From a virus (Duplodnaviria > Heunggongvirae > Uroviricota > Caudoviricetes), in IMG/VR virus record IMGVR_UViG_637000107_000005: a stretch of DNA of 44,938 nucleotides. One strand, written 5' to 3'. Position numbers: made by a program. Positions 15,001-18,000 of this stretch are shown piece by piece. The stretch's first letter is position 1, and every line of letters begins with the position of its first letter.

Positions 15001-18000
15001 TTTCGTTTTCTTGATCACGCCTTTGCAACCGGCGTGCTCGGGTAAAAGAGGTTACTGATGCGTATAGAGTTTGTTTTGCTTTACCCGCCGACGGTGAACA
15101 CCTACTGGCGACGTCGTGGCAGCACATATTTTGTATCAAAAGCCGGTGAGCGTTATCGCCGGGCTGTGGCGCTTATTGTTCGCCAGCAGCGGCTGAAATT
15201 AAGCCTGTCCGGAAGGCTGGCGATAAAGATTATTGCCGAGCCACCGGATAAGCGCCGCCGTGACCTGGACAATATTCTGAAAGCGCCGCTGGATGCGCTG
15301 ACGCATGCGGGGTTGCTAATGGACGATGAGCAGTTTGATGAAATCAATATCGTTCGTGCTCAGCCAGTATCTGGTGGACGTCTGGGGGTGAAGATTTACC
15401 CCATAATGCTTGAAGGGCAGGTCAAAAAATGAAACTGGAAGATTTACCGAAATACTACTCCCCAAAATCCCCCGGCCTGACTGATGCATCGGCCTCAACG
15501 TCGAAAGATACGCTGAGTATCACTGATGTGATGGCCGCGCAGGGCATGACACAGAATTGGGCTGAGATGGGGTTTTCTGCGTTCCTTGGGAAAATGGGCA
15601 TTAGTATGAATGACAGAGAGCGGGCAACAGAATTGCTGACAGAATATGCACTCAGTCGGTGTGATCGCGTGGCGGCGTTAAGAAAACTCCCGGCAGAAAT
15701 AAAACCGGCAGTGATGCGTATTATGGCTTCGTATGCGTTTGAAGATTATGCCCGTAGCGCGGCGAGCAAAAAACAGTGCCCCTGTTGTCACGGAAAAAAA
15801 TTTATTGAAAGCGAGGTTTTTACAAACAAGATCCAGTATCCGGATGGTAAGCCGCCAGTGTGGGCAAAGTGCACAAAAGGCGTGTATCCGTCTTACTGGG
15901 AGGAATGGAAAAAAGTCAGGGAGGTGGTAAAAGTTGCCTGTCCGGAGTGTGGAGGGAAGGGGGAGGTTTCCACCGCCTGTAAAGATTTTCGTGGGCGCGG
16001 TGTTGCCATTCATCGTGAAGAGTCGGTAAAACGTGGTATGCCTGTTATCAGAGACTGCCAGCGTTGTGGTGGTCGTGGCTATGAAAGATTACCTTCAACG
16101 GAGGCATTTAATGCCATATGTAATGTAACCGATGCCATATCTCTTGATACATGGAAAAAAACAGTTAAACGTTTTTACGATACGCTGGTGGTGCAGTTTG
16201 ATATTGAAGAAGCATGGGCAGAACAACAACTGAAAAAGGTGACCAGATAGCTTTGTTGATTTTTCCCGAATCTGTGGTAAATTTGCCCTAACGATGGGCG
16301 TTTTATGCCTGACGTTAGAAGATTTTTTACACCCGTCGCCAGGCGGGTTTTTTTATGACTGAAATCACGCCAGTACAGTAAACGCGCTGGTGGTTGTGAA
16401 TACCGGTCTTTCTGCTTGCTGGCTTTTTCGACAAGAGTTATTGGTGTGTCACGTTAACCGGAAAAAGGAAAGTTTGAGAAACGCGATCTGGCACAGGCGG
16501 TGATTAACGCCGCATACCTGGTGGCCTGTGCAGATGGTGAATGTGAGGCTTCCTAGAAAGCGAAGATCGAACAGGTACTGCGTAATCAGCCAGCGCTGTC
16601 CGCGTTTACGTCAGAAATTAATGCGATTAGCGCAACCATTATCGGTCAGCTGGATACGAACTTTAAAACTGGTCGTCGTGCGGCGTTACGTGAGATCGAG
16701 GATGTGAAACACGATACGCGTGAAGCGGAAGATGTGCTGGATGTGGCGGTGGCCATTGCGGAGGCAGACGGCGAAATTGAGCCGGAAGAGCGCAAGGTGC
16801 TGGAAGAGATTGCCGGTGTTCTGGGTCTTCGTCTGGAGAATTACCTGTGACGGTAAAACTGCGTCTGGCTGTGGCTGCACTCCTGCTGTTTCTGGTGGTG
16901 ATGGTGGATTTCACCAGCAGAATCATGTCGGTGCTGGCGGATGGGGGGCTGNTCTGCGGCATTGTGGTATTGCTGTGGCCGGTGATAAAAAGAAACAGCC
17001 TGCATAATGCTTGATTTTTTTGTTTACTGTTTATTAAAAATACTACTGCATGGCGAATCCCCCTGTGCGGAGGGGCAATCAGCAACCAGGTATATGGGAT
17101 AATCGCGGATTCAGGTGCTGGTACTGAATTCACCGGGAGGCACCCGGCACCATGCTTTGCCACAAAAGTGTTATTTCTGTTTTTCTCAAACTATCATCGT
17201 TATCCCTTTATTTCCGGCTGCGCATGGCGCGGCCTTTTTTTTACGACCAGCCACTGGCAGATGGTCATCCTGTGATTTGATTCCGGTTCCGGCTTTTTAA
17301 CTCTGTTCCTGTACACGGGAGAAATTCGATGTCGATTAAACATTATGATGTTGTCAGGGCGGCGTCGCCGTCAGACCTTGCGGAAAAGCTGACACACAAA
17401 CTGAAAGAGGGCTGGCAGCCGTTTGGTAGTCCGGTGGCCATAACCCCTTATACCCTGATGCAGGCGATTACAGCAGAAGGTGATGTGGTGGTCAGTGGTG
17501 CAACTGAGCCGGATTGGTACTACGTCATCGTACTGGCCGGGCAGTCCAATGCCATGGCTTACGGTGAAGGGCTTCCGCTGCCGGATTCATACGATGCTCC
17601 GGATCCGCGCATTAAACAGCTGGCGCGCCGCAGTACAGTGACGCCGGGTGGGGCTGCCTGCAGATATAACGATATTATTCCGGCCGACCACTGCCTGCAT
17701 GATGTGCAGGATATGAGTACGCTGAATCATCCGAAGGCAGACCTGAGCAAAGGGCAGTACGGCTGTGTCGGCCAGGGGTTACATATTGCCAAAAAACTGC
17801 TCCCGTATATCCCGAATAACGCGGGGATCCTGCTGGTACCATGCTGTCGTGGTGGTTCGGCATTTACCCAGGGCGCGGAGGGGATATTCAGCGAGTCCAC
17901 GGGGGCCAGCCAGGATTCGGCGCGCTGGGGTGTGGGTAAACCGTTATATCAGGACCTGATTGCGCGCACCAAAGCTGCATTACAGAAGAACCCGAAAAAT

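What the first reader, a model, noticed from the sequence alone, without database searches (positions are those of the whole stretch)
16260..17014. TerB-like gene remnant and a coupled small membrane ORF directly after the late terminator
Downstream of Q and tR', a reading frame with a TerB-like acidic C-terminus lacks any start codon and carries an in-frame TAG. Its stop overlaps the GTG of a 55-aa hydrophobic ORF (GTGA coupling). Either a decayed cargo gene pair, or an intact pair obscured by sequence errors, in the slot that Stx phages use for toxin cargo.
Basis: partly seen in the sequence, partly recalled or inferred. Interest (0 to 1): 0.5.

Follow-up and report, generated by a model that had tools for sequence, protein, structure and literature searches.

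The report
Decayed tciA/tciB prophage cargo pair
This is an ordinary, already-annotated dead copy of a phage TerB-like gene (tciA), broken by a stop codon and a 1.9-kb deletion, followed by its still-open small membrane partner gene (tciB), in the cargo position where related phages carry Shiga toxin.

Summary
Window 16473-16850 encodes a nearly complete TerB domain (Pfam PF05099, 45 bits). It has an in-frame TAG at 16554-16556 and no authentic start. Its TGA overlaps the GTG of a 55-aa DUF3927 ORF (16847-17014).

Sequencing error is excluded. The 1078 bases are identical, apart from one N, in hundreds of complete O157:H7 genomes. NCBI's PGAP pipeline already annotates 'TerB family protein, pseudogene, internal stop' plus 'DUF3927 family protein'.

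The pair is the phage module tciA/tciB, named in phage P1. Intact tciA has 143 codons. Here Glu46 is GAG>TAG. A roughly 1.9-kb deletion, with its junction at 16459-16472, removed a 66-aa ORF, a DNA methyltransferase, three tRNA genes and the tciA start. The deletion occurs only on amber alleles, so the amber mutation came first.

Intact tciA is strongly constrained across genera (dN/dS 0.002-0.15). tciB is full length in 46/47 loci with intact tciA, but in only 24/47 loci of this window's allele class, so it decays after tciA dies.

In 933W, stx2AB sits in the same slot. A known sRNA of the STnc100 family follows at 17022-17188.

Verdict: a decaying cargo (moron) cassette, already known. The function of the intact pair has not been tested.

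The parts
15429..16250 (+). Late antiterminator gene Q (273 aa)
   Evidence: ORF. Pfam Antiterm PF03589, 164 bits. Annotated as antitermination protein in Sakai and EDL933.
16256..16283 (+). Putative late promoter pR' (TTGATT, 16-nt spacer with TG, TAAATT). Inferred only.
   Evidence: Read from the sequence. It falls below the threshold of the consensus scan. The position matches the annotated pR' at the 3' end of Q in 933W.
16331..16355 (+). tR'-like intrinsic terminator (7-bp GC-rich stem followed by T7)
   Evidence: Terminator scan.
16356..16458 (+). Leader that in related prophages precedes a 66-aa ORF and a DNA methyltransferase gene
   Evidence: Window 16203-16471 is 90% identical to L006 307-575 and L007 2348-2616. 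In those loci the 66-aa ORF starts a few bases further on.
16459..16472 (.). Deletion junction in purine-rich microhomology (GGAAA...AAAG). About 1925 bp are missing relative to L006.
   Evidence: BLAST breakpoints: window 16203-16471 matches L006 307-575, and window 16469-16951 matches L006 2501-2983. Also the alignment. 475 complete genomes have a match that spans the junction.
16473..16850 (+). tciA (TerB family) pseudogene remnant, codons F19-L143 of 143 plus the stop
   Evidence: Pfam TerB 45.2 bits. PGAP: 'pseudogene, internal stop'. 92-98% identical to the tciA genes of L003 and L006 (intact) and L004 (amber allele with a complete 5' end). The intact homologue matches PDB 2JXU TerB at E=4e-8.
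16554..16556 (+). Amber codon: GAG (Glu46) changed to TAG
   Evidence: Alignment A1. The allele also occurs in genes with a full-length 5' end.
16704..16850 (+). 48-aa GTG ORF, annotated in Sakai as ECs_5711 'TciA/TerB-like protein'. It is the C-terminal fragment of the pseudogene and probably not a gene.
   Evidence: Pfam TerB profile positions 70-109 only. PHROG 3920 is a family made of such fragments. The nearest GAGG is only 2 nt from the GTG (sequence).
16847..17014 (+). tciB (DUF3927), a 55-aa ORF with two hydrophobic segments. The reading frame is open.
   Evidence: Pfam DUF3927 57.4 bits. PHROG 1470 'TciB-like' 102.6 bits. Annotated as a DUF3927 family protein. It carries G34 where most alleles in the sample have V.
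17022..17188 (+). STnc100-family (PasD-related) sRNA gene. A neighbour, not part of the pair.
   Evidence: Rfam RF02076, 94 bits against a gathering score of 47.
17216..17244 (+). Terminator-like hairpin with a T-run, upstream of the esterase gene
17329..19179 (+). NanS-p-type sialate O-acetylesterase gene (DUF1737 + SASA + DUF6645). It bounds the cargo slot on the downstream side.
   Evidence: The same gene follows stx2B in 933W.

Best explanation
The locus is a decaying copy of the two-gene phage cargo cassette tciA-tciB. tciA encodes a cytoplasmic TerB-fold protein. tciB encodes a small protein with two hydrophobic, probably membrane-spanning, segments. The cassette lies in the Q-dependent late transcription unit of an E. 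coli O157:H7-type lambdoid prophage.

tciA is dead through two successive lesions. First, Glu46 (GAG) mutated to amber (TAG). Later, a deletion of about 1.9 kb between short purine-rich repeats joined the leader downstream of tR' to roughly codon 15-19 of tciA. That deletion removed a 66-aa ORF, an N6/N4 DNA methyltransferase gene, tRNA-Ile/Arg/Arg, and the ribosome-binding site and start codon of tciA.

tciB still has an open frame and its own GGAG. It has lost the upstream translation that the overlapping TGA/GTG normally provides. Copies in this state are being lost, so it is most likely a relic that has not yet decayed.

Shown here: identity of the genes, the lesions, their order, the distribution of alleles, the selection pattern and the synteny. 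Inferred: that the cassette is transcribed only by read-through from pR', that tciB output is low, and any biochemical role of the intact pair. TerB domains are thought to act at the membrane through acidic motifs proposed to bind metal ions; no experiment on TciA or TciB was found.
For: **Identity**
- Pfam TerB and DUF3927 matches above their cutoffs.
- PHROG 632 'tellurite resistance' and PHROG 1470 'TciB-like'.
- tblastn hits to tciA of P1 and to the tciA/tciB pair of phage JLK-2012.
- PDB TerB 2JXU at E=4e-8 for the intact homologue.

**Not a sequencing error**
- Identical apart from one N to Sakai, EDL933 and hundreds of other complete genomes.
- PGAP calls it a pseudogene with an internal stop.

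**Lesions**
- Alignment with intact genes shows GAG>TAG and loss of homology 5' of about 16465.
- BLAST breakpoints define a gap of about 1925 bp relative to L006. The gap contains the ORF, the methyltransferase, three tRNAs and the tciA start.

**Order of events (IMG/VR loci)**
- GAG with ATG in frame: 55 loci.
- GAG with a frameshift: 16.
- TAG with ATG in frame: 4.
- TAG with a frameshift: 31.
- TAG with the 5' deletion: 51, plus one locus (L162) with a variant junction, read by eye as the same deletion.
- The deletion was never found with GAG.

**Selection**
- Intact tciA has dN/dS of 0.002-0.15 between genera, with synonymous sites saturated.
- Variants private to TAG alleles are 4 synonymous and 9 nonsynonymous, against 77 and 38 for all others.

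**Pairing**
- tciB follows tciA directly, with overlapping or abutting stop and start, in 88 of the 90 loci L010-L099, L101 and L103-L104. The exceptions are L033 (TGA not in frame; tciB sequence follows) and L097 (weak match 21 nt downstream). L100 has it 5 nt downstream. These include Franconibacter, Pantoea, Serratia, Pectobacterium and Oceanisphaera.
- tciB is full length in 46/47 loci with intact tciA, 69/99 with lesioned tciA, and 24/47 in this window's class.

**Redundancy**
- O157:H7 genomes carry 3-4 further copies with a complete tciA 5' end. At least one of them is annotated as intact.
Against: - tciB is still a complete ORF here and in half of the deletion-class loci, with a plausible Shine-Dalgarno. 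A residual function cannot be excluded.
- No expression data for this copy were examined.
- The allele counts come from IMG/VR contigs that are not phylogenetically independent and are dominated by Shiga-toxin-producing E. coli isolates.
- Some frameshifted tciB alleles lie in a run of six G and could be assembly errors in draft genomes.
- No additional stop codon has appeared downstream of the TAG in any of 83 assessable TAG loci; one locus lacks the terminal TGA in register. This fits a recent origin plus recombination but does not prove it.
Confidence: 0.88

Rival explanations
1. tciB (16847-17014) remains a functional stand-alone small membrane protein. It would be translated from its own GGAG on the late transcript and kept by selection after tciA was lost.
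For: The 55-codon frame is open, and GGAG lies 7 nt before the GTG. It is full length in 24/47 deletion-class loci and 30/30 TAG-plus-frameshift loci. A DUF3927 ORF also persists without tciA in the O104:H4 prophage L007.
Against: tciB is broken in 30/99 loci where tciA is lesioned, through at least 6 different changes, against 1/47 where tciA is intact. The window copy has Gly at position 34, where most alleles in the sample have Val. In every other genus examined the gene occurs only directly behind tciA. Coupling to upstream translation is lost.
Confidence: 0.15
2. The amber allele is functional. Either TAG is read through or suppressed to give full-length TciA, or the gene works as a split gene, for example through the 48-aa ORF 16704-16850 that Sakai annotates as ECs_5711.
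For: The TAG allele is as common as the GAG allele in IMG/VR: 89 against 73 exact matches. No further stop has accumulated downstream. The 48-aa fragment still scores as TerB and has its own PHROG family.
Against: There is no tRNA gene, suppressor or otherwise, in the window. In this copy the start codon and ribosome-binding site are deleted, so there is nothing to read through. TAG alleles also collect frameshifts and the 5' deletion. Their private variants are mostly nonsynonymous. The 48-aa ORF covers only profile positions 70-109 of 118, and its GTG has GAGG just 2 nt upstream.
Confidence: 0.04
3. The pair is intact, and the TAG and the missing start are sequencing or assembly errors in this window.
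For: The window holds 126 ambiguous bases, one of them inside tciB at 16952.
Against: Window 16251-17328 is identical at every called base to Sakai and EDL933, and 99.9% identical to at least 30 listed finished genomes. Records whose best match is at least 99% identical number 400. 475 genomes have a match that spans the deletion junction.
Confidence: 0.01

Closest known systems
tciA-tciB of bacteriophage P1 and of lambdoid phages such as Escherichia phage JLK-2012
   Same: Same two families in the same order, with overlapping stop and start. JLK-2012 tciA is 97.6% identical to the remnant at protein level, and its tciB follows directly. The P1-family records listed show tciA at 39-52% identity. 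PHROG 1470 names the small protein 'TciB-like'.
   Different: Here tciA is a pseudogene (amber codon plus 5' deletion). No tciC was looked for or seen. [quoted passage not shown]
TerB of the terZABCDE tellurite-resistance operon (Pfam PF05099; PDB 2JXU, Klebsiella pneumoniae TerB)
   Same: Same domain over its whole length: E=4e-8 to 2JXU for the intact homologue, Pfam 60 bits for the intact gene and 45 bits for the remnant. The two acidic ADGE...E motifs are visible in the sequence.
   Different: No TerC, TerD, TerZ or TerA gene lies next to it. The partner is a 55-aa DUF3927 protein instead. Tellurite resistance has not been shown for TciA.
stx2AB cargo position of Stx2 phage 933W
   Same: Same slot and same neighbours: Q, pR'/tR', tRNA-Ile/Arg/Arg, cargo, STnc100-type sRNA, SASA (NanS-p) esterase, holin. 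An STnc100 copy lies 75 nt downstream of the stx2 operon (PMC12370729).
   Different: The cargo is unrelated to Shiga toxin. In this window the tRNA genes have also been deleted.

Membership tests
TerB family (Pfam PF05099) | Profile HMM match above the curated gathering score, covering most of the domain | tested here: met
   The remnant scores 45.2 bits against a cutoff of 24.4, covering profile positions 2-109 of 118. The intact orthologue scores 60.2 bits.
TerB family (Pfam PF05099) | Sequence homology to a solved TerB structure | tested here: met
   Intact orthologue L006 against PDB 2JXU_A: E=4e-8, residues 13-137 aligned to 19-144. No structure prediction was run.
TerB family (Pfam PF05099) | An intact, translatable coding sequence, that is, a gene rather than a remnant | tested here: not met
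   In-frame TAG at 16554-16556. The start codon, ribosome-binding site and first 14-18 codons are deleted. PGAP flags it as a pseudogene.
ter operon tellurite-resistance system (terZABCDE) | Neighbouring terC, terD, terZ or terA genes | tested here: not met
   The neighbours are Q, DUF3927, an sRNA and a SASA esterase. The same holds at the intact loci.
ter operon tellurite-resistance system (terZABCDE) | Confers tellurite, colicin or phage resistance | not testable with these tools
   No experimental paper on TciA or TciB was found.
tciA-tciB phage module (as named in P1) | A TerB-family gene immediately followed by a DUF3927 / PHROG 1470 gene on the same strand, with overlapping or abutting stop and start | tested here: met
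   GTGA overlap at 16847-16850. The arrangement is kept in 88 of the 90 loci L010-L099, L101 and L103-L104 (exceptions L033 and L097); L100 has tciB 5 nt downstream. No tciB-like ORF was found in L102 or L105-L111.
tciA-tciB phage module (as named in P1) | Detectable similarity to P1 TciA | tested here: met
   tblastn against the P1-family records listed: 39-52% identity over 97% of the query, E from 2e-15 to 3e-32.
DUF3927 (Pfam PF13064) | Profile match above the gathering score, with an open full-length frame | tested here: met
   57.4 bits against a cutoff of 25, residues 3-51 of 55. One ambiguous base, which is G in finished genomes.
Cargo (moron) in the late-leader slot of Stx-type lambdoid phages | Located between Q/tR' (with or without tRNA genes) and the nanS-p esterase and lysis genes | tested here: met
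   Window gene order compared with the 933W annotation.

The most novel reading that the evidence does not exclude
The repeated, stepwise inactivation of tciA in prophages of Shiga-toxin-producing E. coli may be adaptive rather than neutral. The lesions are the amber codon, a poly-A frameshift, a 1-nt deletion and the 5' deletion, and together the lesioned alleles outnumber intact ones in the sampled loci. One possible reason is that a phage TerB paralogue is costly or interferes in hosts that carry several copies and a chromosomal ter island. In this reading the surviving tciB, or the remnant RNA, keeps a role of its own on the late transcript.
Probability: 0.08. Interest if true: 0.4.

Novelty: already known. 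Interest (0 to 1): 0.12.

Why it matters
It matters little as a discovery. The pseudogene and the DUF3927 gene are already in RefSeq annotation, and the module has had a name (tciA/tciB) since the P1 genome was annotated.

The follow-up does clean up the record in four ways:
- It shows why the gene has no start: a roughly 1.9-kb deletion that also removed a methyltransferase gene and three tRNA genes.
- It gives the order of the lesions.
- It shows that the 48-aa 'TciA/TerB-like protein' ORF in the Sakai annotation is a pseudogene fragment.
- It shows that tciB tends to decay once tciA is dead, which is indirect evidence that the two proteins work together.

The intact tciA-tciB pair is very strongly conserved across Enterobacterales prophages, sits in the Shiga-toxin cargo slot, and has no tested function. 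The intact pair is the more worthwhile target, but it is not in this window.

Tried and rejected
- **tRNA scans.** Scans of 15000-19000 and of the whole window found nothing, so there are no tRNA remnants and no suppressor tRNA.
- **Defence-system profiles.** The PADLOC scan of TciA and TciB gave only a 14.9-bit sub-threshold hit, so there is no link to a known defence system.
- **NCBIfam.** It gave only a weak partial DjlA match at 25.7 bits against a cutoff of 162. This reflects the shared TerB-like domain, not membership.
- **RNA folding.** Folding around the tciB start (16790-16890) was no more stable than shuffled sequence, z = +0.78. There is no evidence for a structure that hides the Shine-Dalgarno.
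- **Minus-strand ORF.** The 166-aa ORF at 16663-17163 has no Pfam match and is not annotated. It was treated as spurious.
- **Promoter scan.** It found no plus-strand sigma-70 consensus site in 16000-17500. The pR' and sRNA promoters proposed here rest on reading the sequence only.
- **Literature.** Searches for tciA/tciB, DUF3927 and TerB in prophages returned no functional study. The P1 genome paper was not held.
- **tciB codon-variant count.** A codon-variant count for tciB was discarded because indels and replaced C-termini contaminate it.
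Full report
**1. What is in the sequence**

The window region reads, on the plus strand, as follows.
- A 273-aa Q antiterminator gene at 15429-16250 (Pfam Antiterm, 164 bits).
- A terminator-like hairpin with a T-run at 16331-16355.
- A frame with TerB similarity that ends in TGA at 16848-16850.
- A 55-aa hydrophobic ORF at 16847-17014, whose GTG overlaps that TGA.
- A 616-aa DUF1737/SASA esterase gene at 17329-19179.

Translating the TerB frame gives ...R*PEKGKFEKRDLAQAVINAAYLVACADGECEAS*KAKIEQVLRN...GLRLENYL*. The internal TAG is at 16554-16556. Three further stops lie upstream, in 16260-16457, which is leader rather than coding sequence.

The remnant matches Pfam TerB at 45.2 bits (cutoff 24.4), covering profile positions 2-109 of 118. 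The small ORF matches DUF3927 at 57.4 bits (cutoff 25).

**2. It is not a sequencing artefact, and it is already annotated**

Window 16251-17328 matches at 99.9% over its full length in hundreds of complete E. coli genomes, mostly O157:H7. Against Sakai and EDL933 the only difference is the window's N at 16952, which is G in both.

RefSeq EDL933 annotates 'tellurite resistance TerB family protein, pseudogene, internal stop' (window 16488-16850) followed by 'DUF3927 family protein' (16847-17014). Sakai places the region in prophage Sp6. It annotates the 48-aa GTG ORF 16704-16850 as 'TciA/TerB-like protein' and the small ORF as hypothetical.

Outside the 1078 bases the window differs from Sp6, for example in the esterase allele. 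It also contains 126 ambiguous bases. This fits the mosaic, multi-copy nature of these prophages.

**3. Identity of the pair**

A tblastn search of phage genomes finds the remnant at 97.6% identity in Escherichia phage JLK-2012, where the two genes are named tciA and tciB. It is found at 39-52% identity in tciA of the P1-family phage records listed. PHROGs assigns the intact protein to PHROG 632 ('tellurite resistance') and the small protein to PHROG 1470 ('TciB-like'). The intact homologue aligns over its length with the solved Klebsiella TerB, PDB 2JXU, at E=4e-8.

In a P1 CRISPRi screen, tciA, tciB and tciC were non-essential. [quoted passage not shown] I found no functional study.

**4. 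The two lesions**

Intact tciA has 143 codons, as in L006 2451-2882 and L003 2450-2881. Alignment A1 shows two things.

First, the window's TAG replaces GAG. By my count from the translated intact gene this is Glu46, the last residue of the first ADGECEASE motif.

Second, similarity to tciA stops 5' of about 16465. BLAST against prophages with the same Q type gives two blocks: window 16203-16471 matches L006 307-575 at 90%, and window 16469-16951 matches L006 2501-2983 at 93%. The roughly 1925 bp between these blocks in L006 hold four elements:
- a 66-aa ORF;
- a DNA methyltransferase gene (Pfam N6_N4_Mtase, 151 bits);
- tRNA-Ile, tRNA-Arg and tRNA-Arg;
- the ribosome-binding site, start codon and first 14-18 codons of tciA.

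The junction, at 16459-16472, lies in purine-rich sequence present on both sides (GGAAA...AAAAG), so its exact position is ambiguous. 475 of 5426 complete genomes have a match that spans this junction.

**5. Order of events and other lesions in relatives**

Exact 35-mer scans of IMG/VR found the TAG allele in 89 stretches and the GAG allele in 73. I classified the fetched loci by the state of their 5' end.

| Codon 46 | State of the 5' end | Loci |
|---|---|---|
| GAG | ATG in frame (fully intact) | 55 |
| GAG | extra A in the poly-A run of codons 6-8 | 13 |
| GAG | 1-nt deletion in codon 3-4 | 3 |
| TAG | ATG in frame | 4 |
| TAG | poly-A frameshift | 31 |
| TAG | 5' deletion | 51 (plus L162) |

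L162 was classed 'other' by the script. I read its upstream sequence by eye as a variant of the same deletion junction.

The 5' deletion was never found with GAG, so the amber mutation came first. The deletion-class alleles differ from the window by 0-58 positions in 542 nt. They have therefore been spread and reshuffled among prophages rather than belonging to one clone.

**6. Selection**

Between E. coli, Franconibacter, Pantoea, Pseudescherichia and 'Enterobacter' pulveris, intact tciA shows dN/dS of 0.002-0.15. Synonymous sites are near or past saturation, and protein identity is 88-91%. Intact tciA is thus a strongly constrained gene.

Codon variants private to TAG alleles are 4 synonymous and 9 nonsynonymous. 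All other variants are 77 synonymous and 38 nonsynonymous (Fisher p=0.015, counted on haplotypes and not corrected for phylogeny). This points to relaxed constraint after the nonsense mutation.

**7. The small ORF**

tciB follows tciA directly in 88 of the 90 loci L010-L099, L101 and L103-L104. The junctions are GTGA in the E. coli-type loci and TGATG, TAATG or ATGA elsewhere. The two exceptions are L033, where the TGA is not in frame although tciB sequence follows, and L097, which has only a weak match 21 nt downstream. In L100 tciB lies 5 nt downstream. These loci include Franconibacter, Pantoea, Serratia, Pectobacterium and Oceanisphaera. No tciB-like ORF was found behind the more distant TerB proteins of L102 and L105-L111.

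The state of tciB tracks the state of tciA.

| State of tciA | tciB full length |
|---|---|
| Fully intact | 46 of 47 loci |
| Any lesion | 69 of 99 loci |
| TAG plus 5' deletion (this window's class) | 24 of 47 loci |

The difference between intact and lesioned tciA gives Fisher p=2.5e-5, but the loci are not independent. The broken alleles take several distinct forms. One is a nonsense allele that ends after residue 43, seen in 18 loci. Two frameshift alleles lie in a run of six G and might be errors in draft assemblies.

The window's tciB is full length but has Gly34, where most alleles in the sample have Val. It keeps a GGAG 7 nt upstream of the GTG. However, ribosomes can no longer arrive from tciA, because tciA has no start and stops 97 codons upstream.

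My reading is that tciB is a relic that has not yet decayed. A surviving stand-alone role is the main rival, at about 0.15.

**8. Context**

In 933W the order is Q, pR'/qut/tR', ileZ-argN-argO, a terminator, stx2A-stx2B, SASA esterase, holin. In tciAB prophages it is Q, tR', optionally the 66-aa ORF and methyltransferase, the same three tRNAs, a hairpin with a T-run, tciA-tciB, SASA esterase.

By analogy with stx2, the intact cassette would be expressed mainly by Q-dependent read-through after induction. This is an inference.

O157:H7 genomes carry 3-4 further copies with a complete tciA 5' end. The copy examined in strain PA20 has GAG with the poly-A frameshift, and PGAP annotates it as intact with a TTG start. 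This redundancy, and the general decay of O157 prophages, give a sufficient neutral explanation for the loss.

**9. Rivals**

- Sequencing error is refuted (section 2).
- Read-through or a split gene is unlikely. There is no tRNA gene in the window, and this copy has no start codon. Lesions keep accumulating on TAG alleles. The 48-aa ORF covers only a third of the domain, with a GAGG just 2 nt from its GTG.
- No defence-system profile matched.
- No significant RNA structure was found at the tciB start.

**10. Verdict**

The finding is a correctly observed but ordinary and already-annotated pseudogene plus partner ORF. The new details are the deletion, the order of the lesions and the co-decay of tciB. 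The intact tciA-tciB module is highly conserved, placed like a toxin cargo and functionally untested. It is the more interesting object, but it lies outside this window.

Noticed in passing
window 17022-17188 (+), with 17011-17016 and 17216-17244: A strong STnc100-family (PasD-related) sRNA match (Rfam 94 bits against a gathering score of 47) begins 8 nt after the tciB stop. A possible -35 element, TTGATT, overlaps the tciB stop codon. A terminator-like hairpin follows at 17216-17244. EDL933 copy 'STnc100_4', listed at a nearby coordinate in the old assembly, was positive on a northern blot (PMC5331693). In Stx2 phages a copy lies 75 nt after the stx2 operon (PMC12370729).
   Followed up: partly
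window 13224-13398 (+) and 4435-4486 (-): A sok antitoxin RNA (105.6 bits), next to the hok/mok genes annotated in Sakai and EDL933, and a DicF sRNA (76.9 bits) lie elsewhere in the prophage.
   Followed up: no
window, 126 positions, for example 3107, 16952, 18091 and a dense run through 29741-35270: The window holds 126 ambiguous bases, many between about 29.7 and 35.3 kb. It also diverges from Sakai Sp6 and EDL933 outside 16251-17328, for example in a different esterase allele from 17376 onward. This suggests consensus calling across paralogous prophage copies, or a mosaic relative of Sp6.
   Followed up: partly
L004 2454-2500; L274 2565-2993; IMG/VR loci such as L112 and L201: A second common tciA lesion is an extra A in the poly-A run of codons 6-8 (A6 to A7), which puts the ATG out of frame. 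It occurs in 44 IMG/VR loci, with GAG or with TAG. PGAP annotates the GAG form as intact by choosing a TTG start 4 nt downstream, so some 'intact' RefSeq TerB proteins may not be made.
   Followed up: partly
L007 4426-4949 (E. coli O104:H4 prophage); the same arrangement in L008: In this prophage an unrelated 118-aa ORF replaces tciA and the first third of tciB. This leaves a chimeric 43-aa ORF that is still annotated as DUF3927, an independent rearrangement of the same cargo slot.
   Followed up: partly
phage P1 gene list (PMC10695390): P1 has dmt (DNA methyltransferase), trnT, plp, upl, tciA, tciB, tciC, trnI. This echoes the order methyltransferase, tRNAs, tciA, tciB in the lambdoid prophages and may reflect a shared ancestral block.
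   Followed up: no
L162 (IMG/VR), upstream of its tciA remnant: One locus carries a variant of the deletion junction (…GTTAACGGAAATTGGAAAGTTTGAG…). It keeps the tciA codons GAA ATT, which suggests the original crossover was at CGGAAA and that the window's version changed afterwards.
   Followed up: no
window 17209-17352 (-): PGAP annotates a fragmentary 'hypothetical protein' pseudogene on the minus strand, overlapping the start of the esterase gene. It was not examined.
   Followed up: no
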